Positions 1-50,929 of a stretch of DNA of 64,000 nt are shown piece by piece (positions within the stretch are counted from its first letter, which is position 1; each line of letters opens with the position of its first letter). The notes beneath the pieces are model-generated. The model did not search any database and had not been told where the DNA came from. It worked only from the letters and a program-made list of their open reading frames with translations. The stretch comes from Escherichia phage vB_EcoM-Pr103Blw. The translations under genes and the position numbers were made by a program. The DNA lies in the sequence record MW481326.1. One strand, written 5' to 3'.

Positions 1-1200
1 GCCCCCTTAACATTTTCTTAACAATTTCTTAACAAACCCTACATAGTTATGCTTGTTAGAGACTTGTTAGCCCCTTGTTAAATCTCTGTTAAGACCACGT
101 AAAAGCCTTGTAAGAGTCTTTGACATATCCTTAAAAGCCTCTGTAAAGCCCTATAAAGAGCTATCCATACAGTTGAGGGGTAAATACTAGGGAGAGCCTT
201 AAAAGAGCTTACAAGGGGCTGTATAGGGCTTTTAAGAGGTATGTTTAAGAGTTCACTAAGAAAGGAAAGGGAACGATAAGAAAAGAGATAGTGACCATGT
301 TAATAGCTTGTTAAAAAGATTAAACACTTGTTAGAAACTTGTTAATTATCTTAATAAAATAACTCTTTAAAATTAACTTGTTAGCTCTTATTAGTCATCT
401 GTTAAGACTCTGTAAAGACTATTCAGCACTTGTTAGAAAACTGTTACATCCTTGTTAGTTCTGTTAAGAGACTGTTAAGACCTTTGAAGAGTTGTTAAGA
501 GCTTGTGAGAACTGTTAAGAGATTGTTAAGGATATTTTAAAATTTTGCAAAGTACTTGTAAGGGAGTTGTTAAGGGCTACCAAGCAGATATACATCCTAA
601 TCAGATATTTTTCAGTTCCTTCAAAGACCCTAAAAAATGACTTGACAACTCTATTTTATAAAAATTTTAAAATTCTGAATAATTACCTATACAGTCTTTT
701 AAAAATACAGGCATAAACAGGCTTATAAGATACCTTGTTAGTACCGTGTTAGACCTTGTGAGATAAGGTCTGTGAAGATATTCCTGTTAAGTTTGTTAAA
801 ACAGTCTATATAGAGGCTTAGTAATACCTAGTGAACACCTATAGAGAGTCACATAGCTTACCTAATGGGTTACTGTTAAGTAACACAGATAACCTAGAGA
901 TTAAGAGGTGTATAGAGGCTTCTAAGAGCGTATAGAGAGATGGTTAAGGTGATTGTATAGGTTGTTAAGAAGGCTTGTTAGAAGAGTGTTTAGAGGGCTA
1001 TTTAGAAGGGTTATACAGAGGGCTATTAAGACCACTAGATAGTTACTAAGATACTATATAGTACTATATAACTATATAGAGAGTAAGATTAAGAAGGTTG
1101 TTAAGAAGGATAGATATTTTATTCACATATGATGGTGACCCAGAGGTTGGGACAACCGATAAAATTTTATAAAAATTAAAAAGCCCCCAATTAAGGAGGC
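1..1200. repeat. Non-coding AT-rich array of short direct repeats (TTGTTAG / TGTTAAGA-like, more than 20 copies, plus CTTAAAAGAG-like motifs)
   Basis: No ORF of 60 aa or more; visible reiteration of cttgttag, ctgttaag, ttgttaaga at irregular 8-25 nt spacing. Confidence 0.7.
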
Positions 1201-1212
1201 TCTTAAGATATT

Positions 1213-8700: not shown

Positions 8701-8864
8701 AGATAATCCTCTTGTCTTCTGTAATTTTGAAAGAACAGGTACAGACCAATTTCAGAGGATGAATAGTAGATTAACTCTACCCTTTTTGATTCCTTACAGT
8801 GATTGGTATTCTTACCTTTCTTCGGTTTATTTGATTTTCTCATTAAGTCTCCTTTGTAGAACAA
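8682..8864 (-). CDS. hypothetical small basic protein (doubtful)
   Basis: 60-aa ORF at head of leftward string. Confidence 0.25.
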   Translation of the reverse strand: MFYKGDLMRKSNKPKKGKNTNHCKESKRVELIYYSSSEIGLYLFFQNYRRQEDYLCVVPN

Positions 8865-8941
8865 GGCAGACCTACAGCTTTAAGTAAGATGGTACAGTAA
8901 TCCATACAACAAGTCAAGAACTATTGCAAGTTAAAAAAGTT

Positions 8942-8965
8942 GTTGACAAAGTACTTGACAAGGTA
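8942..8965 (+). promoter_or_regulatory. conserved tandem TTGACA motif GTTGACAAAGTACTTGACAAGGTA (copy 1 of 2)
   Basis: Nearly identical 24-nt sequence recurs at 50311..50334; both sit in divergent intergenic regions. Confidence 0.5.
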
Positions 8966-9092
8966 TAGGCTTATAAATACTTAGAAGATAACTTAAAAGG
9001 TTCCTCTAAAAAGGCTATTTAAACAGATATCTTTCTGGATATCTATCTTTTATCTTAAAAGCCTTTTAAGAGGTCTTATAAGAGGCATACCA

Positions 9093-9464
9093 ATGAAAAA
9101 CAGAACAAACAAAGGCCAGTTTAAAAAAGGCCAGTCTGGAAACCCATCTGGAAGACCAAAAGGCTCTCGTAACAAAAGCTCACTTGTAAAAGCTCAACTG
9201 ACCATTGATAATTCTGCTGAGTTTGCTGCAAAGTTGTTTGAGGCGATTGTTACAAGGGACGCGGCTAAGCTTGCAGAGTTTGGGTTAAACACAGACGACG
9301 TAACCATCAAGAGCATGATTGAGGTCGGTAAAACTATCATGACCCACTCAGCAGGTGAGATGAAAGCAATTGCAGCAGACACTAAGAAGACTCCTGATAA
9401 TGGTGGTCAGTCTCAGACAGATAACAAACCAACGTTCTCTGCTGTTGCAACCCTTAAAAAATAA
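9093..9464 (+). CDS. hypothetical protein with basic N-terminus (GNPSGRPKGSRNK motif)
   Basis: 123-aa ORF immediately upstream of Ro60-like gene. Confidence 0.5.
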   Translation: MKNRTNKGQFKKGQSGNPSGRPKGSRNKSSLVKAQLTIDNSAEFAAKLFEAIVTRDAAKLAEFGLNTDDVTIKSMIEVGKTIMTHSAGEMKAIAADTKKTPDNGGQSQTDNKPTFSAVATLKK

Positions 9465-15162: not shown

Positions 15163-15235
15163 AGCGGTATAGCATAACTGGCAATGCAGCAGTCTCTGAA
15201 GCTGTCTTATTAAGGTTCAAATCCTTATGCCGCTG
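15163..15235 (+). tRNA. tRNA-Gln (anticodon CTG)
   Basis: D-stem GCAT/ATGC, anticodon stem GCAGT/GCTGT loop CTCTGAA, T-arm TAAGG-TTCAAAT-CCTTA, CCA encoded. Confidence 0.6.
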
Positions 15236-15269
15236 CCACTTCTAAGGATTCTTACGAGAGTCCTTAAAT

Positions 15270-15342
15270 GTGGCCTTATCATAAACGGTAATGACCCATG
15301 CTGTGAACATGGTCTATACGGGTTCAAATCCCGTAGGTCACC
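15270..15342 (+). tRNA. tRNA-His (anticodon GTG)
   Basis: anticodon stem CCATG/CATGG loop CTGTGAA, T-arm ACGGG-TTCAAAT-CCCGT, discriminator C, CCA encoded. Confidence 0.65.
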
Positions 15343-15350
15343 CCAATTTA

Positions 15351-15425
15351 TAGTCCAAGTAGCTTATATGGTTAAAGCGCGTGTCTGAAAAACATGAGAA
15401 GAGGGTTCAAATCCCACTGGACTAC
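15351..15425 (+). tRNA. tRNA-Phe (anticodon GAA)
   Basis: perfect acceptor TAGTCCA/TGGACTA, anticodon stem CGTGT/ACATG loop CTGAAAA, T-loop TTCAAAT; exact ends uncertain. Confidence 0.55.
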
Positions 15426-15443
15426 CAATTTCAAAGGTGCTTA

Positions 15444-16178
15444 ATGAAAGAGATGACAGAACAAGGTAAGGAGATTTTCAATCTCTTAAAAACTGGTAAA
15501 GGGTTTTCTAACCCCCTTATTACTGGTGCAGCAGTTCTCGGTGGAACCGTAGCTGCCTCTACATCACTTGTAAGCTCTATTAGCTCTGTATCAGACCCTA
15601 CAGTAAAGGATAAGCTTGTTGCTGCTGGACTTACAACAGTTCTGCTTAACAGCTTTACCACGAGTCTGACAAGCACTACATCAACTACCAAAACACTGAC
15701 AGATTATGGTCAAAAGTCCATTGATGAGTTCTCATCACGTATGCAGGTAGCAAAAGGTTATTCTAATGTTATGGGTGCAGCAGGTGAACAAGTTGGCTGT
15801 ACACCATTTAGTGGTATTATGGGTGTTGCTACAGAGTATGGTCAAAAAGCTATTGATACGATTAACAGTGCACTAGATAGTGTTAATGGTGTGTTAAGTG
15901 ACTTACAAGATGCTATTGACAAAGGTCTTGATACTATTTCTGATTTAGCTGAGCAAGCTGTTAGTAAGATTAATGAAGGTATTTCAAAAATTACAGCTTA
16001 TGCAGATGAAGTTGTACAGATGATTGAAGAAGAAGCTGCTCTTATTGCAGAGTACCTTAAAACGAATATCAATGGGTTCTTAGCAGGTATCTTACCAGAC
16101 TGGTTTGATGATGCTTGTAAAACTGGTGTAATTGACACTATTGCAACACCAGAAATGAAGAACGCATTACAGAAATAA
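15444..16178 (+). CDS. hypothetical Ser/Thr-rich protein
   Basis: ORF-track ORF starts inside tRNA-Phe; internal ATG at 15444 preceded by AAAGGTG chosen as start. Confidence 0.5.
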   Translation: MKEMTEQGKEIFNLLKTGKGFSNPLITGAAVLGGTVAASTSLVSSISSVSDPTVKDKLVAAGLTTVLLNSFTTSLTSTTSTTKTLTDYGQKSIDEFSSRMQVAKGYSNVMGAAGEQVGCTPFSGIMGVATEYGQKAIDTINSALDSVNGVLSDLQDAIDKGLDTISDLAEQAVSKINEGISKITAYADEVVQMIEEEAALIAEYLKTNINGFLAGILPDWFDDACKTGVIDTIATPEMKNALQK

Positions 16179-16180
16179 AT

Positions 16181-16270
16181 GGAAGATTAACCCTAAAAGG
16201 TAAGGGAGCAGTTTGCTAAACTGCCAGTAGCTGAGAAATCGGTGTACCAGTTCAAGTCTGGTATCTTCCT
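16181..16270 (+). tRNA. tRNA-Ser (anticodon GCT), long variable arm
   Basis: perfect acceptor GGAAGAT/ATCTTCC, anticodon stem GCAGT/ACTGC loop TTGCTAA, about 20-nt variable arm, T-arm ACCAG-TTCAAGT-CTGGT, CCA encoded. Confidence 0.7.
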
Positions 16271-16277
16271 CCAATTT

Positions 16278-16350
16278 GAATCCGTGACAGAAATGGCTAT
16301 GTGCCTGTCTGCAAAACAGGTTTATAAGGGTTCGAGTCCCTTCGGATTCT
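16278..16350 (+). tRNA. tRNA-Cys (anticodon GCA)
   Basis: perfect acceptor GAATCCG/CGGATTC, anticodon stem CCTGT/ACAGG loop CTGCAAA, T-arm AAGGG-TTCGAGT-CCCTT, CCA encoded. Confidence 0.7.
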
Positions 16351-16391
16351 CCAAGTTATTTTACTCTCTCTCAATTAAAATAATAATAATG

Positions 16392-20725: not shown

Positions 20726-22072
20726 ATGAGTTCGAATATCTTCAGACTTGCTGATAGATTATTCAACCAACCTTTACTAGCCACTGAATCATTAGCTCAC
20801 TCAGCAGCAACTTATGTGAATAACAGATTACTGGGTGATGTCCAAGCAGCAGTAAACTTTGATAAACCCAAAGGTGAAGCAAGAAGTCTTTTAAAAGTAA
20901 AAGATGACATTGCTATTATCCCTATTATGGGTGGTTTAACTCATCGTATGACATTCATTGATGCAATGTGTACAGGTGGTCTAAGCTCTTATGAAGGTTT
21001 ACGTAGAGGCTTTGACGAAGCTTTAGCAGATGAGTCAATCAAGACTATTGTTCTGCATATTGATTCTGGTGGCGGTGAAGCTTCAGGTTGCTTTGAATTA
21101 GCACGTCACATCATGGCTTCAAGAGGCCAAAAGAAAATTATTGCTTATGTAGATGAGTTCGCTTGTTCCGCTGCATACGCTCTTGCATCTTCTGCTGAAG
21201 AAATTATTGCATCACCAGATGCAGATGTTGGTTCTATTGGTGTAATCATGGTTCATCAGGAATTAACTAAGGCATTTGAAAAGAATGGCGTAACAATTAA
21301 CGTCATCAAAGCTGGTGAGTTTAAAGGTATGGGTTCACCATTCCAAGCACTTTCAGAAGAAAGCAAAGAAAGACTTCAAAAGAGAATTAATGATACCTAC
21401 GCAACCTTTACAGGTTTTGTAGCTGAATCACGTAATCTCTCTGAAGAAGCTGTAAAGAATACTGAGGCGAATGTTTATTCTGCTCAGGAAGCTCTTGAAC
21501 TTGGTTTAATTAACTCAATCATGTCTCAAGATGATTTCTTAAATTACTTACAAGGTTCTGAAGAGGCTCCTGTAAGTTTAAACGTTAACAATTCAGGTGA
21601 AGAAATGACTGAACAAGAAAAGCAAGAACTAGAGGCTTTGCGTCTTCAGGTTGCTCAAATGAAAGCCAAAGAACAGGAAGCTGCTTTGTCAGATTTGACT
21701 AATAAGATTTCTGCTTCTGCTGAAGCTTTTGGATTTGATGCAAAAGAAGCTGCAACGACTATTTTAGGTGCTGGTCTTGATAACCCTCTGAGTGTTCTGT
21801 TTATGAATGCTATGGAAGGTGCTAACCAGAAACTTAATGAAACTATCGCGTCCCATGCTTCTGCAATGGAAGAAAAAGAATCAGAAATTACCAAGCTGAA
21901 AGAAACTGCTGGTGCTGTTCTTGAACATTCTAATGCTATGGAAGAAATGGGTAATAACGGTGAAGCTGATTTGGTTGAAGAAGAAAAAGAACCAGCTAAG
22001 AATGCTTCCGAAGACACCGCTGAACAACGCAAACTGGCTCTCCAGAATGCTCTAAAATCTCTTATCAAATAA
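20726..22072 (+). CDS. prohead protease (S49/ClpP-like) fused to acidic coiled-coil scaffold-like C-terminus
   Basis: N-terminal half resembles SppA/ClpP-fold peptidases (IMGGLTH, GGGEASG, FACSAAYALA); C-terminal about 150 aa Glu/Ala/Lys-rich helical. Confidence 0.55.
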   Translation: MSSNIFRLADRLFNQPLLATESLAHSAATYVNNRLLGDVQAAVNFDKPKGEARSLLKVKDDIAIIPIMGGLTHRMTFIDAMCTGGLSSYEGLRRGFDEALADESIKTIVLHIDSGGGEASGCFELARHIMASRGQKKIIAYVDEFACSAAYALASSAEEIIASPDADVGSIGVIMVHQELTKAFEKNGVTINVIKAGEFKGMGSPFQALSEESKERLQKRINDTYATFTGFVAESRNLSEEAVKNTEANVYSAQEALELGLINSIMSQDDFLNYLQGSEEAPVSLNVNNSGEEMTEQEKQELEALRLQVAQMKAKEQEAALSDLTNKISASAEAFGFDAKEAATTILGAGLDNPLSVLFMNAMEGANQKLNETIASHASAMEEKESEITKLKETAGAVLEHSNAMEEMGNNGEADLVEEEKEPAKNASEDTAEQRKLALQNALKSLIK

Positions 22073-42940: not shown

Positions 42941-43270
42941 TTAATCTGCCAACCTTAAATTGAAATTAACACCAAATTTTTCACACACTTCCAACATATA
43001 CTCAAGAGAGACATTCCCAGTGAGGTGGATTATGTTGGATACACGAGCTTGAGAGATACCACAAATTTTAGCGACTTGCTCTTGAGAAAGACCTCTGGAT
43101 TTAATCTCTCTCTTAAAACGATGTGCAACGAAGTCTCTCATTTCGTCTACATCCATTGGACAAATATAACTCTCCATTTCAGCCTCTCTATCAGCCTCCC
43201 AATCATCTTGTGGAGCATAAGGGTCAAAAACCTCATTCATCTTTCTTCTTCCGTTTACGTGAAGTATCAA
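42941..43270 (-). CDS. XRE-family helix-turn-helix DNA-binding protein
   Basis: GLSQEQVAKICGISQARVSNI matches Cro/C1-type HTH pattern. Confidence 0.55.
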   Translation of the reverse strand: MILHVNGRRKMNEVFDPYAPQDDWEADREAEMESYICPMDVDEMRDFVAHRFKREIKSRGLSQEQVAKICGISQARVSNIIHLTGNVSLEYMLEVCEKFGVNFNLRLAD

Positions 43271-47488: not shown

Positions 47489-47549
47489 ATGACCTCCTAT
47501 ACAAGATACAGTATAAGGTACTCTTCCGTGAGCACCTTGTCAATACTAA

Positions 47550-50279
47550 TTAGTGAACCTCAAGCCAGCTTTTACCAACCTTACCAGTACCTGTAACAAG
47601 TGTTTCTTTCTTAAGACCTAAGTTTTTAGAAGCTTGTCCATAATACCAGTCAGTAACTGCTTTCACTTCTGCCGTCATACTTTCTGGACATTCCCAACTT
47701 GTTTCATCGTGATATGCGCAGAGCAAACGAGCACCAATAGCTGGTTGACGACCATTCAACTTCATCAAACCTTCGTCAATCATACGACGACAAGCAAGGT
47801 TGATTGCCTCATTTTGAATCTGAGCCTCTGAACCCATCAAAAGGTAGTTCAACAGTTTGTGTGGAGATTTACACCACAACCAAGCTCCAGCAACCTTTAC
47901 GAAGCCCCCTTTAGAGATTGCAGCGGTCTTACCAAACACCTCTTCAAGTGCCTTCTTAGTTGCTTTGTAGTCAGCTTCCAAGTTATCTAATAGTTTCTTA
48001 ATCTTTGGTAAACGCACAAAGTAAGTCTGTTTAGTTAATGCACCTTCCTGAGTAGTGGCTGCCTTAATAGTTTTAGCAAACTTTTCATCACCTGCACCGA
48101 ACAGTAGTGCATAGATACCATTCTTAGCTTTCTTACGACCTTTGCTAATCTCATGAAGAAGATTCTCATCCTGAGTAGCTCGACAATTCAAGATATCCTG
48201 CTCATCATTCAAGCTAAAGTAAATACTGTTCAGTGTATGTGCATCAGTCCCTGAATAAACAACGTACAGGTCATTCTCAGGGTCATAACGTAGGTACTTA
48301 TCAATCTCTGGGTTGAGGTACTCATCAAAGTGTTTGCAGTAATAGCGTCCATCTTCTTGACGAATAAACTCAATCTCTTCTTTACCTTGCGTCACCGCTT
48401 TGGTGAAGTCTTTGTCACCCATAAAGTTGCAAAGAAGAACTAGCTGGGCTGAGTTCATGTCTACAGAGACAACGTTAGTACCTTCTTCACAAATCCACAC
48501 TGCCCTCATTGGTTCACCATAGACAGCAGCACCAGACGGTACGTTTACAATACCATACTGTGTCATACGTCCAGTTGAAGTACCAAATACCATTGCACCA
48601 GCACTAAGGCGACCATCTGGACGAATCTGGTTTAGCCAACCTTTCTCATCATCCTTTGAGTTCTCAATAGTTCTGCGTCTGTGCATCAAAGTATAGTACT
48701 TAGCAATCTTCTGTCCAAGCTCACCTTCAATCGTATCATAAGATGATTCCGTAAGTTTTGGTGAAGTACGGATTAAGCAAGGTTCAAGCAAATCTGTGTA
48801 CTTCTTCACAGACCAGTTATGTTCAATGTACTGGACACCTTCATGTTCGACATAACTCAAACCACACCGTTCAACCATCTCCTGCCACTTAGGATGTTTT
48901 GTAATCATCTTTTTGTTGTCTTTGAAACGACAAACTTTGACAGGGCGACCATCTGAGTCTTTCTTGTAGTTCCAGTCATCTGGAATCCAACCAACTGATT
49001 TCAAGTAGTCTTTAACAACTGCTACCTGAGTCATACGAGAAACTTCAAACTCAATTGGTGTATATGGTGCATCAATCAATCCTGTGTAGCGACTTGACTC
49101 CAGTTCAAAGTGGTTAACAACATGGCTGTTATAGTACTTCACAGTCTTAACTGTCTTCACTGGCTTCCAGTCTTTGCATTTCTTACCAATCTTTGCATTC
49201 AACTCGTTGCAAATTGCACGAGCATCCTTCATTGCTACAAAACCTTCCTTGTACTCTTCACCAGTTACAGAGTTGGTTGGTGTATAGCAATTTCTCTTTT
49301 CAATGTTAAAAATCTTTGTAGTTGGCTTACCAAATGGTTTGATTTCGTATGTCTGCATCTCACCGTTACGTACCTGCTGACGGTACTTCGTCTTAGGGTA
49401 CTTGGTAATTCTCTTCAGTCCATCTGCATGACCGAATGCTTCCACATACTCATTCCAAGCTTTTGCAAACTCTTCTCCAGTAACTTTACCTTTAGTTTTA
49501 ATAGTTGGAGGAAGATGTGGTTCAACTTCTGAAGCAAGCTCATTAGTCAACTTGTCAAGTTCCTTTACATGGAACTCCATAAGCTCTTTATCAGCCTTCC
49601 AACCATTAATAGCCTGTTGACTCATCCAGAAAGATGTTTCTTTAGCTCGCATGTAGGTTTCATAGGTGTCTATGCCACACTTCTTTAGCTTCAGGTATTC
49701 ATTATCCAGTGCACGTTTAGTTTTGGCGTTAATACGGATATCTTCTACAACACGAGTGAAGATTTCTGCATTCCACACACCCCAATGTTCAATCTCTGGT
49801 TTACGTACACCAACACGAGCACCCCATGCTGCCAAACCATGAGCACCTTTATAGCCTTTTGGAGTTGGTCTATCCATCCACTGAACACGAGATTGGATAA
49901 GAGAATCCTGAAAGAAATTACTCCACGGCTTACACTTTGGATTATCAAAGTTCCATAAATCAGGTGCAATGTGATTGAAAACCCACCAGTCATATCCAAG
50001 ACCGTTATGGATGCAAAGCCGTTTTGCCTTTAACGCAAACTCAATACCTTCACGTAAGCCACCCTTAATGTACTTGGTATACTTGTGACCGAGGATAGGC
50101 TCATCTGTAAAGACCCATACAGGTGGCTCTTCATCGTCAGATTTATAGTCTGCGAAAGCCATTACGTGCACTTTAGTGAACTCAAGGAGTAAACCATCAG
50201 TTTCTGTATCACCAACTAAATGTAAGTTTTTAAAATCTACGTTTTCCATTTTTACTCCCTCTAAAATCATTAACCTCAT
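47550..50279 (-). CDS. DNA polymerase, family A (PolI-like) with 3'-5' exonuclease domain
   Basis: 909 aa; N-terminal Exo I-like DTETDG; size and organisation as in T5/T7-type polymerases. Confidence 0.7.
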   Translation of the reverse strand: MRLMILEGVKMENVDFKNLHLVGDTETDGLLLEFTKVHVMAFADYKSDDEEPPVWVFTDEPILGHKYTKYIKGGLREGIEFALKAKRLCIHNGLGYDWWVFNHIAPDLWNFDNPKCKPWSNFFQDSLIQSRVQWMDRPTPKGYKGAHGLAAWGARVGVRKPEIEHWGVWNAEIFTRVVEDIRINAKTKRALDNEYLKLKKCGIDTYETYMRAKETSFWMSQQAINGWKADKELMEFHVKELDKLTNELASEVEPHLPPTIKTKGKVTGEEFAKAWNEYVEAFGHADGLKRITKYPKTKYRQQVRNGEMQTYEIKPFGKPTTKIFNIEKRNCYTPTNSVTGEEYKEGFVAMKDARAICNELNAKIGKKCKDWKPVKTVKTVKYYNSHVVNHFELESSRYTGLIDAPYTPIEFEVSRMTQVAVVKDYLKSVGWIPDDWNYKKDSDGRPVKVCRFKDNKKMITKHPKWQEMVERCGLSYVEHEGVQYIEHNWSVKKYTDLLEPCLIRTSPKLTESSYDTIEGELGQKIAKYYTLMHRRRTIENSKDDEKGWLNQIRPDGRLSAGAMVFGTSTGRMTQYGIVNVPSGAAVYGEPMRAVWICEEGTNVVSVDMNSAQLVLLCNFMGDKDFTKAVTQGKEEIEFIRQEDGRYYCKHFDEYLNPEIDKYLRYDPENDLYVVYSGTDAHTLNSIYFSLNDEQDILNCRATQDENLLHEISKGRKKAKNGIYALLFGAGDEKFAKTIKAATTQEGALTKQTYFVRLPKIKKLLDNLEADYKATKKALEEVFGKTAAISKGGFVKVAGAWLWCKSPHKLLNYLLMGSEAQIQNEAINLACRRMIDEGLMKLNGRQPAIGARLLCAYHDETSWECPESMTAEVKAVTDWYYGQASKNLGLKKETLVTGTGKVGKSWLEVH

Positions 50280-50310
50280 ACATTACTGCAAAAAATTATA
50301 AAAAGCAAGT

Positions 50311-50334
50311 TGACAATGTACTTGACAAGGTGTT
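50311..50334 (+). promoter_or_regulatory. conserved tandem TTGACA motif GTTGACAATGTACTTGACAAGGTG (copy 2 of 2)
   Basis: 23/24 identical to 8942..8965; lies in divergent region between polymerase block and rightward replication block. Confidence 0.5.
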
Positions 50335-50506
50335 AATCTTTGCGAAGTGGGTTTTTACTTAAAAGGTTACTTAACAGTTTAACTATACAGATACTTTAAA
50401 ACTCTTAAAAGATTATTTAATAGCTTTTAAAAAGCTTTAAAGTATAACGTATAGAATACGTTAAGATAAAAGATTAAAACTTAATAGTTACTTAAAAGAG
50501 GCTTAC

Positions 50507-50929
50507 ATGCAGAAAATGTTTGTTCACCCAGACATAGCTGACTTTGTTAGAGCTTTGCAGAAGTTGGAAGAACTTGACATTGCTGCTCAACGGGAATATG
50601 CTCACCATCACAGGAGAATGGTTGATATACAACATGAAATAGAGTTGTCTGAAAACTATGAAGATGACTTAAAATGCTCTGTATTTGAGCATATGAAAGA
50701 TGTTGCTACAGCGAGACGTAAAGCTAAAGACACAGTTGCTTTACTAGATTCTCTTAAAAAGAGGTTGCAAAGTGGTACAGACCTGTGTAATCTAGCGTCA
50801 CTGATTAATGATGTTGAAACTTCTTGGGATAGACATTACTATCCACGTTCTGAAAAGACACTTGACTTTTCTTCATCCGAAAACTTAAAATGTTCTAGAA
50901 AGAAACTTAACCAACTGAGAGAGAAATAA
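50507..50929 (+). CDS. hypothetical protein
   Basis: 140-aa ORF, first gene of rightward block. Confidence 0.45.
   Translation: MQKMFVHPDIADFVRALQKLEELDIAAQREYAHHHRRMVDIQHEIELSENYEDDLKCSVFEHMKDVATARRKAKDTVALLDSLKKRLQSGTDLCNLASLINDVETSWDRHYYPRSEKTLDFSSSENLKCSRKKLNQLREK

What the first reader, a model, noticed from the sequence alone, without database searches (positions are those of the whole stretch)
8942..8965. 24-nt tandem TTGACA motif shared by two divergent intergenic regions
GTTGACAAAGTACTTGACAAGGTA here and GTTGACAATGTACTTGACAAGGTG at 50311-50334 are almost identical, and each lies where leftward and rightward gene blocks diverge. The double -35-like hexamer with conserved spacing suggests a shared promoter/operator recognised by the same factor.
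Basis: seen in the sequence. Interest (0 to 1): 0.45.

Follow-up and report, generated by a model that had tools for sequence, protein, structure and literature searches.

The report
Twin promoters with a doubled -35 box
The 24-base motif is the core of two sister host-type promoters of a Felix O1-like phage, already annotated as promoters in public records; the only unexplained part is a second, strictly conserved TTGACA box inside each.

Summary
GTTGACAAAGTACTTGACAAGGTA is at 8942-8965. Its near-twin (22/24 identical) is at 50309-50332, two bases left of the reported position. No such pair is expected by chance. The window is a Felix O1-like myovirus, and each copy sits in one of its two divergent control regions, pointing rightward.

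Each copy is the -35 hexamer plus upstream spacer of a sigma70-type promoter: A-tract, TTGACA, a 17/18-bp spacer, then a -10 whose T1, A2 and T6 are conserved across genera (TAGGCT 8966-8971; TGT-TAATCT 50331-50339). Whichard 2010 predicted the first, with a non-conserved -10. GenBank KR014248 annotates both.

What is new concerns the second TTGACA:
- It lies in the spacer and has no -10 partner.
- It is invariant in every lineage retrieved, while the bases around it drift.
- Homologous promoters of Erwinia and Pectobacterium relatives lack it.
- A third promoter outside the window carries it at a 13-bp offset.

Its role is inferred only. My leading idea is a second sigma region 4 site, re-met after about 12 nt of RNA. 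The main rival is an operator for a phage regulator. No 5'-end data exist. Interest is low to moderate.

The parts
8942..8965 (+). Motif copy 1 (GTTGACAAAGTACTTGACAAGGTA): the -35 hexamer and most of the spacer of promoter P41
8933..8938 (+). A-tract just upstream of the -35, resembling a proximal UP-element subsite
   Evidence: An A-run is kept in all lineages. The UP-element consensus is quoted from memory.
8943..8948 (+). hex1, TTGACA: the productive -35 of P41
   Evidence: Invariant in 27/27 loci retrieved through an unrelated leader pattern. 17 bp upstream of a conserved TAnnnT.
8955..8960 (+). hex2, second TTGACA, inside the spacer (about -24 to -19)
   Evidence: Invariant while 9 of 11 neighbouring filler columns vary (Fisher p=7e-5). 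No TAnnnT lies 16-18 nt downstream in any lineage (read from the alignment).
8966..8971 (+). -10 hexamer of P41, TAGGCT (3/6 match to consensus)
   Evidence: Across genera it reads TAGGCT, TAGCCT, TAAGTT or TAGTGT. Positions 1, 2 and 6 are invariant and 3-5 vary.
8977..9092 (+). Predicted leader of ORF41 (start inferred near 8977-8979). 72% A+T over 8972-9095, nearly invariant across genera, carries CTTAAAAG-type words.
   Evidence: the start site is inferred, not mapped
50309..50332 (+). Motif copy 2 (GTTGACAATGTACTTGACAAGGTG): the -35 hexamer and spacer of promoter P97
50300..50304 (+). A-tract upstream of the -35. AAAAAGCAAG is invariant in all lineages.
50310..50315 (+). hex1, TTGACA: the productive -35 of P97
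   Evidence: KR014248 annotates a promoter equivalent to 50310-50339.
50322..50327 (+). hex2, second TTGACA, in the spacer
   Evidence: Invariant in 23/23 IMG/VR loci and in two Suspvirus records, while 6 of 12 filler columns vary.
50331..50339 (+). Extended -10 of P97: TGT + TAATCT, 18-bp spacer from hex1
   Evidence: TAATCT or TAGTCT preceded by TGT or TGG in all lineages.
50346..50506 (+). Predicted leader of ORF97 (start inferred near 50345-50347). 76% A+T over 50340-50509, with seven CTNNANAG words on the sense strand.
8889..8917 (-). Candidate leftward promoter of the ORF40/39 block: TTGACT-N17-TACCAT
   Evidence: The sequence is identical in Moogle. Pectobacterium phage Wc4-1 has TTGACA-N17-TACCAT at the equivalent place.
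50280..50308 (-). Candidate leftward promoter of the DNA polymerase block: TTGCTT-N17-TAATGT. Its -35 lies back to back with hex1, 1 bp apart.
   Evidence: Read. TTGCTT is invariant. The -10 reads TAATGT, TAGGGT or TAAGGT (T1, A2, T6 kept).

Best explanation
The motif is the -35 hexamer plus upstream spacer of two sister sigma70-type promoters of a Felix O1-like phage. P41 starts the ORF41, tRNA and virion-gene unit. P97 starts the primase-helicase, exonuclease and ribonucleotide reductase unit. Host RNA polymerase most likely binds the A-tract and the first TTGACA through sigma70 region 4. It then opens a weak -10 (TAGGCT or TGT-TAATCT) 17-18 bp downstream and starts about 7 nt later into a long, A+T-rich, highly conserved leader. 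The second TTGACA cannot act as a -35, because no -10 follows it at a workable distance. It is nevertheless under selection. My best guess is that it is a second sigma region 4 site. It lies 12-13 bp downstream of the real -35, so sigma4 would meet it again once the polymerase has made about 12-13 nt of RNA, before the RNA displaces sigma4. That would hold or pause the early complex and open a window for regulation or factor loading. Status of each step: sequence anatomy and conservation are shown. Promoter activity and the start site are inferred. The role of the second hexamer is inferred by analogy only. I put the promoter part at about 0.8 and the sigma4 re-capture idea at about 0.3.
For: The window is a Felixounavirus. 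The perfect tandem TTGACA pair occurs only at the two divergent regions in the window, Felix O1 and Moogle, and always faces the rightward unit. I retrieved relatives through leader patterns that do not include the motif. Both hexamers were invariant in 27/27 site-1 and 23/23 site-2 loci, spanning Felixounavirus, Mooglevirus, Suspvirus and two unclassified lineages. Variable columns: hexamers 0/12 at each site; filler 9/11 at site 1 and 6/12 at site 2 (Fisher p=7e-5 and 0.014). The -10 keeps T1, A2 and T6 while its inner bases vary. The A-tracts are conserved. Independent in-silico annotations agree: P41 in Whichard 2010 (PMC3185647), and both promoters in GenBank KR014248. RT-PCR in that paper puts ORFs 41, 42, 96, 97, 98, 99 and 101 in one temporal class, and ORF96 is already transcribed at 5 min. 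The intergenic regions are at least 99% identical in 168/252 and 182/274 matching phage records, whereas most 4-kb stretches around them are 90-95% identical. For the second hexamer: only the exact TTGACA is common to the three promoters that carry it, including the one upstream of Felix O1 ORF22 at a 13-bp offset. That sequence is the known specificity of sigma70 region 4. There are two precedents. A -35-like element makes sigma region 4 induce a pause at +14/+15 at phage 82 PR' (PMC3326312). Sigma region 4 also relocates to a second -35-like site in the lambda Q loading complex (bioRxiv 10.1101/2022.03.25.485794).
Against: No 5'-end mapping exists for any Felix O1-like phage in the searched literature, so promoter activity itself is unproven. 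Both -10 hexamers match the consensus at only 3 of 6 positions, and the consensus scanner did not list either promoter. The second hexamer's position shifts by one base relative to the -35 (12 or 13 bp) and to the -10 (gaps of 4, 5 or 6 bp), which is loose for a precise RNA polymerase contact. No -10-like pause element lies 12 bp downstream of the -10 at site 2 (AGTGGG). No Q-type antiterminator is named in the RefSeq annotation of Felix O1. Erwinia and Pectobacterium relatives run homologous promoters without the second hexamer, so it is not essential for promoter function.
Confidence: 0.55

Rival explanations
1. The two TTGACA repeats form an operator for a phage-encoded regulator. The protein sits on the -35 and spacer and switches both rightward promoters, and the ORF22 promoter, off or on together. 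The candidate is the XRE-type helix-turn-helix protein ORF85 (42941-43270, minus strand), made from the leftward early unit.
For: The second hexamer is selected yet has no -10 partner. It appears at three promoters of one clade. ORF85 has an HTH_3 domain (E=6e-10) and a sub-threshold Sigma70_r4 match of 21.8 bits against a cut-off of 24.1. Its homologues occur in 258 Escherichia, Salmonella, Shigella and Citrobacter phage records but in no Erwinia or Pectobacterium relative. That is the same distribution as the second hexamer.
Against: The co-distribution amounts to one evolutionary event, and many other genes would share it. The nearest solved relatives of ORF85 are HipB, HigA and C-protein type regulators. 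From general knowledge, these bind inverted repeats as dimers. The motif is a direct repeat, and its only dyad (AAGTACTT) is not conserved outside Felixounavirus. Apart from TTGACA itself, no base is shared among the three sites.
Confidence: 0.2
2. These are two overlapping tandem promoters. Each TTGACA is a -35 with its own -10, giving two starts 12 nt apart.
For: There are two perfect -35 hexamers. The KR014248 annotator paired a TTGACA with TATAAA at the equivalent of 8972-8977.
Against: At 16-18 bp after the second hexamer the sequences are ATACTT, TACTTA or ACTTAG (site 1), AACACT, ACACTT or CACTTA (Moogle) and GAAGTG, AAGTGG or AGTGGG (site 2). None fits TAnnnT (read). TATAAA lies 11 bp from the second hexamer and 23 bp from the first, and it is not conserved (AATAAA in other genera).
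Confidence: 0.07
3. It is a binding site for a host response regulator that reads direct repeats. Read on the minus strand the motif is TTGTCAA-N5-TTGTCAA, which resembles a Pho box (CTGTCAT-N4-CTGTCAT) serving the leftward genes.
For: The TGTCA core is repeated directly. At site 2 of Felixounavirus a perfect minus-strand TATAAT lies 10 bp beyond the proximal repeat, as in pho promoters (the Pho-box layout is quoted from memory).
Against: The period is 12-13 bp, not 11. That TATAAT is replaced by TGAAGA in Moogle and by a different sequence in contig 3300045988_001525. The motif's distance to the candidate leftward promoters differs between the two sites, while its position relative to the rightward -10 is constant.
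Confidence: 0.03
4. The promoter and its A+T-rich leader with periodic words form a replication origin primed by transcription, as in T4 oriF/oriG or the T7 primary origin. The doubled -35 ensures strong polymerase loading.
For: Both sites sit where gene orientation and GC skew switch. The leaders are 72-76% A+T and packed with 8-nt words, some 11-14 nt apart. The same word family forms dense arrays, often at an 11-nt period, in an unannotated 1.2-kb region. The intergenic DNA is more conserved than the genes around it.
Against: GC skew here simply follows gene orientation. No origin has been mapped. The comparison with T4 and T7 origins is from memory. Nothing about the second TTGACA is explained by this idea.
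Confidence: 0.08
5. The similarity is only a leftover of a recent duplication or gene conversion between the two regions. The second hexamer has no function.
For: Within Felixounavirus the two copies differ at only 2 of 24 positions. Promoter-containing repeats are duplicated elsewhere in Felix O1 (39-bp and 57-bp repeats).
Against: In Mooglevirus and Suspvirus the filler bases have diverged between sites and genera, yet both hexamers are untouched. Variants at filler position 10 combine freely between the two sites in 20 genomes, so there is no ongoing homogenisation.
Confidence: 0.05

Closest known systems
Felix O1 promoter P41 (Whichard et al. 2010, PMC3185647) and the promoter features of GenBank KR014248 (phage AYO145A)
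   Same: Same loci. P41 was given as TTGACA(N15)TATAGG at Felix O1 21515-21541, which starts at the window's first hexamer. KR014248 annotates the equivalents of 8943-8977 and 50310-50339 as sigma70-like promoters.
   Different: Whichard's -10 (TATAGG at N15) exists only in Felix O1 and this window. Most genomes read TGTAGG there. The -10 conserved across genera is TAGGCT at N17. That paper states that no other homologous sequence was found in the 40-41 or 96-97 regions, so the twin at gene 97 was missed. The KR014248 feature at site 1 spans 35 nt, which does not fit its own N15-18 rule. None of these sources notes the doubled hexamer or its conservation.
Strong sigma70 early promoters of virulent coliphages (T4 early, T5, T7 A1-A3), recalled from memory
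   Same: Consensus or near-consensus -35, an A-rich tract upstream, use of unmodified host polymerase, and position at the head of early units.
   Different: As far as I recall, those promoters have good -10 hexamers and no second -35 hexamer in the spacer. Here the -10 is weak (3/6) and a second perfect TTGACA is fixed in the spacer.
Lambdoid late promoters PR' with a second -35-like element (lambda and phage 82)
   Same: A phage promoter heading a long unit that contains terminators and carrying an extra -35-like sequence read by sigma70 region 4 after initiation. There is a pause at +14/+15 at 82 PR', and sigma region 4 is repositioned in the lambda Q loading complex.
   Different: No Q-family protein is annotated. 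No conserved -10-like pause element was found in the first transcribed bases. I could not check the position of the extra element in lambda or phage 82 against this motif, because the primary paper is not held. This is an analogy, not membership.
Pho box and lambda CII sites (direct repeats overlapping a -35 region)
   Same: Short direct repeats in the -35 region of a promoter, read by a protein that works with RNA polymerase.
   Different: The periods are 11 bp (Pho box) and 10 bp (CII, TTGC-N6-TTGC), against 12-13 bp here. The repeat sequences and orientation differ. In those cases the repeats replace or flank a poor -35, whereas here the first repeat is a perfect -35.

Membership tests
sigma70-dependent -35/-10 promoter | -35 hexamer close to TTGACA | tested here: met
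   Perfect TTGACA at 8943-8948 and 50310-50315, invariant in all retrieved relatives.
sigma70-dependent -35/-10 promoter | -10 hexamer with T1, A2 and T6, 17 +/- 1 bp downstream of the -35 | tested here: met
   TAGGCT at N17 and TGT-TAATCT at N18. T1, A2 and T6 are invariant across genera while the inner bases vary. The match to TATAAT is only 3/6, which is why the consensus scanner missed both.
sigma70-dependent -35/-10 promoter | Located upstream of, and oriented toward, a transcription unit | tested here: met
   Motif end to start codon is 127 nt (ORF41, 9093) and 174 nt (ORF97, 50507). Both sit at the head of long same-strand gene blocks.
sigma70-dependent -35/-10 promoter | A mapped transcription start and dependence on sigma70 holoenzyme | not testable with these tools
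   No 5'-end data found for Felix O1-like phages. Only RT-PCR timing is available.
Tandem overlapping promoters (two -35/-10 pairs) | A TAnnnT hexamer 16-18 bp downstream of the second -35 | tested here: not met
   No such hexamer at either site in any lineage (read from the alignments).
Pho box (PhoB site) | Two 7-bp CTGTCAT repeats at an 11-bp period, about 10 bp upstream of a -10 | tested here: not met
   The period is 12 bp (13 at the ORF22 promoter). The minus-strand TATAAT 10 bp away at site 2 is not conserved in Moogle or contig 3300045988_001525. The Pho-box definition is quoted from memory.
Lambdoid Q-loading late promoter | Q-family antiterminator gene plus a -10-like sigma-dependent pause element in the first transcribed bases | tested here: inconclusive
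   No Q-named protein in the Felix O1 RefSeq annotation, but I made no profile search for PF03589, PF06530 or PF06323. The sequence 12 bp downstream of the -10 is TACTTA at site 1 and AGTGGG at site 2, so there is no shared -10-like element.
Operator of an XRE/C-protein type dimeric repressor | Conserved inverted repeat (dyad) overlapping the promoter | tested here: not met
   The only dyad, AAGTACTT at 8949-8956, is lost in Moogle (TTCCTC), Suspvirus (AATGAC) and the other lineages.

The most novel reading that the evidence does not exclude
The second TTGACA is a deliberately placed second docking site for sigma70 region 4, 12-13 bp downstream of the real -35. It tethers or pauses the polymerase at about +12/+13. 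The purpose would be to let a still unidentified phage factor load onto the polymerase, or block it, and so control read-through of the terminator-rich tRNA, virion-gene and replication units. This would be a Q-like loading strategy in a virulent myovirus with no recognisable Q protein. It would also offer an entry point to the unsolved question of how Felix O1-type phages time their transcription.
Probability: 0.12. Interest if true: 0.65.

Novelty: new variant of a known kind. Interest (0 to 1): 0.3.

Why it matters
Felix O1-like phages are widely used for Salmonella typing and biocontrol. Their genome paper states that it is not known how their transcription is timed or how it passes the many terminators. 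This analysis does four things. It places the two main rightward promoters on conserved -10 elements. It shows they are paralogues, with a third member upstream of ORF22. It isolates one small feature under clear selection, the second TTGACA. It names cheap experiments that would show whether that feature is a regulatory switch. If the second box proves inert, the finding is simply two ordinary, already annotated promoters.

Tried and rejected
1. Site-to-site covariation. Felix O1 has GCAC and the window GTAC at both sites, which looked like concerted change. Across 20 genomes with both sites the variants combine freely, so I rejected it.
2. The T4 late-promoter word TATAAATA at 8972-8979. Other genera read AATAAAAC there.
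3. A Pho-box-like layout on the minus strand, including the TATAAT at site 2 (plus-strand ATTATA, 50296-50301). The period is wrong and the TATAAT is not conserved.
4. Lambda CII-type TTGC-N6-TTGC repeats, and the sigma32, sigmaE and sigma54 consensus sequences, checked by eye from memory. None fits, and the bases that would matter vary.
5. Resemblance of ACTCTTAAAAG (50401-50411) to the boxA of lambda nutL, recalled from memory. The CTC part varies among genomes, so I dropped it.
6. A conserved RNA structure in the site-2 leader. RNAalifold gave -15.65 kcal/mol over 173 columns, a covariation term of 0.12, and long-range pairs between repeated words. This is weak.
7. Rfam at gathering thresholds found only tRNAs.
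9. The minus-strand reading TTGTCA-N18-TGcAATAGT at site 1 has no counterpart at site 2, so it does not explain the shared motif.
10. The primary paper on the -35-like pause at phage 82 PR' (PMC3058920) is not held. The offset in that system could not be compared.

Full report
**Observation.** GTTGACAAAGTACTTGACAAGGTA is at 8942-8965. GTTGACAATGTACTTGACAAGGTG is at 50309-50332, two bases left of the reported 50311-50334. A degenerate search allowing 3 mismatches finds only these two copies, and none in 100 dinucleotide-preserving shuffles. A perfect TTGACA-N6-TTGACA pair occurs nowhere else in the window on either strand.

**Context.** The window is a Felix O1-like myovirus of the genus Felixounavirus. 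Four-kb stretches around both sites match about 250 such phages at 90-97% identity.
- Copy 1 lies between Felix O1 genes 40 and 41. To its left runs a leftward block that includes the endolysin. To its right run ORF41 (DUF5681), ORF42, 26 tRNA genes and the virion genes.
- Copy 2 lies between gene 96 (DNA polymerase, leftward; true start most likely 50249, as in Moogle) and gene 97. Gene 97 heads the rightward kinase, primase-helicase, exonuclease and ribonucleotide reductase genes.
- Both copies face the rightward unit.

**Anatomy.** Each copy starts with a perfect -35 hexamer preceded by an A-tract (8933-8938; 50300-50304).
- At site 1, TAGGCT (8966-8971) lies seventeen bases after the first hexamer.
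- At site 2, TAATCT (50334-50339) lies eighteen bases after it, preceded by TGT.
- The second TTGACA (8955-8960; 50322-50327) therefore lies inside the spacer, at roughly -24 to -19.
- The sequences 16-18 bases after the second hexamer never fit TAnnnT. They are ATACTT, TACTTA or ACTTAG at site 1 and GAAGTG, AAGTGG or AGTGGG at site 2.
- The consensus scanner did not report either promoter, because both -10 hexamers match TATAAT at only three positions.

**Comparative test.** I retrieved relatives from IMG/VR through leader sequences that do not include the motif, so the sample is unbiased with respect to it. This gave 28 site-1 loci and 23 site-2 loci. I added Felix O1, Moogle and two Suspvirus records. 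The lineages are Felixounavirus, Mooglevirus, Suspvirus and two unclassified contigs.
- Both hexamers are TTGACA in every complete sequence.
- The six bases between them drift. At site 1 they read AAGTAC, AAGGAC, AAGCAC, AATGAC, TTCCTC, AGCCTC or AGGGGA. At site 2 they read ATGTAC, ATGCAC, ATGCGC, ATACAC, AATCAC, AATAAC or ATTCAC.
- Variable columns at site 1: 0 of 12 in the hexamers against 9 of 11 in the filler (Fisher p=7e-5). At site 2: 0 of 12 against 6 of 12 (p=0.014).
- The -10 reads TAGGCT, TAGCCT, TAAGTT or TAGTGT at site 1 and TAATCT or TAGTCT at site 2. T1, A2 and T6 are fixed and the inner bases are free, which is the signature expected of a working sigma70 -10.
The general feature is two hexamers at a fixed offset.

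**Earlier annotations.**
- Whichard et al. 2010 listed P41 as TTGACA(N15)TATAGG at Felix O1 21515-21541, which begins at the window's first hexamer. They wrote that no other homologous sequence was found in the 40-41 or 96-97 regions. Their -10 exists only in Felix O1 and this window. Most genomes read TGTAGG there.
- GenBank KR014248 (phage AYO145A) annotates a promoter equivalent to 8943-8977, a span that does not fit its own N15-18 rule. It also annotates one equivalent to 50310-50339, which is exactly my assignment for site 2.
- So both promoters are already in public records as in-silico calls. I found no text on the doubled hexamer or on the relationship of the two promoters.
- RT-PCR in the 2010 paper puts ORFs 41, 42, 96, 97, 98, 99 and 101 in one class with a maximum at 25 min, with ORF96 already transcribed at 5 min. 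No 5'-end data were found.

**Distribution of the second hexamer.**
- A third promoter of the same build lies outside the window, upstream of Felix O1 ORF22: aaaaaagtgTTGACAataccccTTGACAttggTAACTT. Moogle has the same with TAGATT as its -10. Its hexamer offset is 13 bp, and its leader again begins with CTAAAAGG and CTTAAAAG words.
- More distant members of the subfamily have homologous promoters with one hexamer only. Erwinia phage phiEa104 has TTGACA-N18-TACATT at the polymerase region. At the ORF41 region it has a probable TTTACA-N17-TACACT.
- Pectobacterium phages have TTGACA-N17-TAGGCT (Arno162) and TTGACA-N18-TACCCT (Wc4-1).
- The second hexamer is therefore a derived feature of the clade infecting Escherichia, Salmonella, Shigella and Citrobacter. 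It is not needed for promoter function as such.

**What the second hexamer might do.** This part is inference.
- The only thing common to its three occurrences is the exact word TTGACA, which is the known specificity of sigma70 region 4.
- It lies 12-13 bp downstream of the real -35. A polymerase that has moved 12-13 bp with sigma still attached would therefore place region 4 on it.
- Published work on lambdoid late promoters gives two precedents. A -35-like element makes region 4 induce a pause at +14/+15 at phage 82 PR', possible only while the RNA is shorter than about 15 nt (PMC3326312). In the lambda Q loading complex, region 4 moves to a second -35-like site (bioRxiv 10.1101/2022.03.25.485794).
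- I therefore favour a region 4 re-capture site that holds the early complex, at about 0.3.
- Three things count against it. No Q-type protein is annotated. No shared -10-like pause element follows. The position floats by one base.

**Main rival: an operator for a phage regulator.**
- ORF85 (42941-43270, minus strand) is an XRE-type helix-turn-helix protein (HTH_3, E=6e-10).
- Its homologues occur in 258 records of the same clade and in no Erwinia or Pectobacterium relative.
- This is a single co-distribution. Its solved relatives are regulators that, from general knowledge, bind inverted repeats as dimers. The motif has no conserved dyad.

**Other ideas I consider weaker.** These are two overlapping promoters (no second -10), a host Pho-box-type site (wrong period; its apparent -10 is not conserved), a transcription-primed origin (untested), and a functionless duplication remnant (contradicted by hexamer invariance amid filler divergence and by free recombination of variants).

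**Surroundings.**
- The 236-nt and 261-nt intergenic regions are at least 99% identical in 168 of 252 and 182 of 274 matching records. Most 4-kb stretches around them are 90-95% identical.
- Downstream of the predicted starts the leaders are almost invariant even between genera. They are 72-76% A+T.
- The leaders are rich in words of the form CTNNANAG, such as CTTAAAAG, CTTAACAG and CTTTAAAG. Counts on both strands are 4 and 9, against about 0.2 expected from shuffles.
- A consensus RNA fold of the site-2 leader is weak, and Rfam finds only tRNAs.
- Candidate leftward promoters are TTGACT-N17-TACCAT (8917 to 8889) and TTGCTT-N17-TAATGT (50308 to 50280). The latter lies back to back with the first hexamer.

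**Verdict.**
- The interpretation as a shared promoter is right in the ordinary sense of host sigma70, and it was largely anticipated by existing annotation.
- The operator idea is untested.
- The one new point is the strictly conserved, clade-specific second TTGACA in the spacer of two (three genome-wide) paralogous promoters, whose role is unknown.
- Interest is low to moderate.

Noticed in passing
window 1-1212: A 1.2-kb stretch with no ORF of 50 aa or more, equivalent to the unannotated Felix O1 gap between ORF23 and ORF24. It is packed with 8-nt words such as CTTGTTAG and CTGTTAAG (reverse complements CTAACAAG and CTTAACAG), often at an 11-nt period (52-107, 298-360, 387-540). There are 37 CTNNANAG words on both strands against 2.4 expected from shuffles. 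It looks iteron-like and could be an origin or a protein-binding array.
   Followed up: partly
window 8977-9092 and 50346-50506: The predicted leaders carry the same word family. At site 1: CTTAAAAG at 8992 and 9054, and at 9070 on the minus strand. At site 2: CTTAAAAG at 50358, 50404 and 50491, CTTAACAG at 50370, CTTTAAAG at 50435. CTTAAAAG occurs 22 times in the window against about 4 expected by my composition estimate. Leaders of Erwinia and Pectobacterium relatives are also full of AACAG words. The function is unknown.
   Followed up: partly
window 8860-9095 and 50250-50510: Both divergent intergenic regions are more conserved than the 4-kb stretches around them. They are at least 99% identical in most of about 250 related phages, whereas most of those 4-kb stretches are 90-95% identical.
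   Followed up: partly
window 42941-43270 (-): ORF85 is an XRE-type helix-turn-helix regulator (HTH_3, E=6e-10) with a sub-threshold Sigma70_r4 match. Homologues occur only in the Escherichia, Salmonella, Shigella and Citrobacter members of the subfamily, which is the same range as the second TTGACA.
   Followed up: partly
window 50444-50464: A hairpin or palindrome, TAACGTAT-aga-ATACGTTA, in the site-2 leader. It keeps its symmetry through paired changes in Moogle (TATGTAT-aac-ATACATA) and Suspvirus (TACGTAT-aga-ATACGTA). The global consensus fold did not select it.
   Followed up: partly
window 10972-11008: A terminator-like hairpin, AAAGGGTATTGACAATGTGTTTAATACCCTTT, contains the -35 TTGACA of the next promoter (TTGACA-N17-TAATAT) just before the tRNA cluster. 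Felix O1 lists it as the bidirectional terminator t42/t43.
   Followed up: no
window 9546-10961 and 11128-16353: ORF42 has DUF2828 and DUF7788 domains and is named 'RNA-binding protein' in RefSeq. It sits directly upstream of a cluster of 26 tRNA genes.
   Followed up: no
window 47505-47543 (-): Just downstream of the DNA polymerase gene lies another promoter-like site, TTGACAAGGTG...TACCTT (N17). It shares the 11-mer TTGACAAGGTG with the second half of the motif, and its spacer is an imperfect inverted repeat (AAGGTGCTC / GAGTACCTT).
   Followed up: no
L004 (Felix O1) 11255-11300; Moogle record about 78040-78078 (minus strand): A third promoter with a doubled TTGACA, at a 13-bp offset, lies upstream of ORF22 outside the window. 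Its leader starts GGGGGTTTATCTAAAAGGG, like the site-2 leader GTGGGTTTTTACTTAAAAGG.
   Followed up: partly
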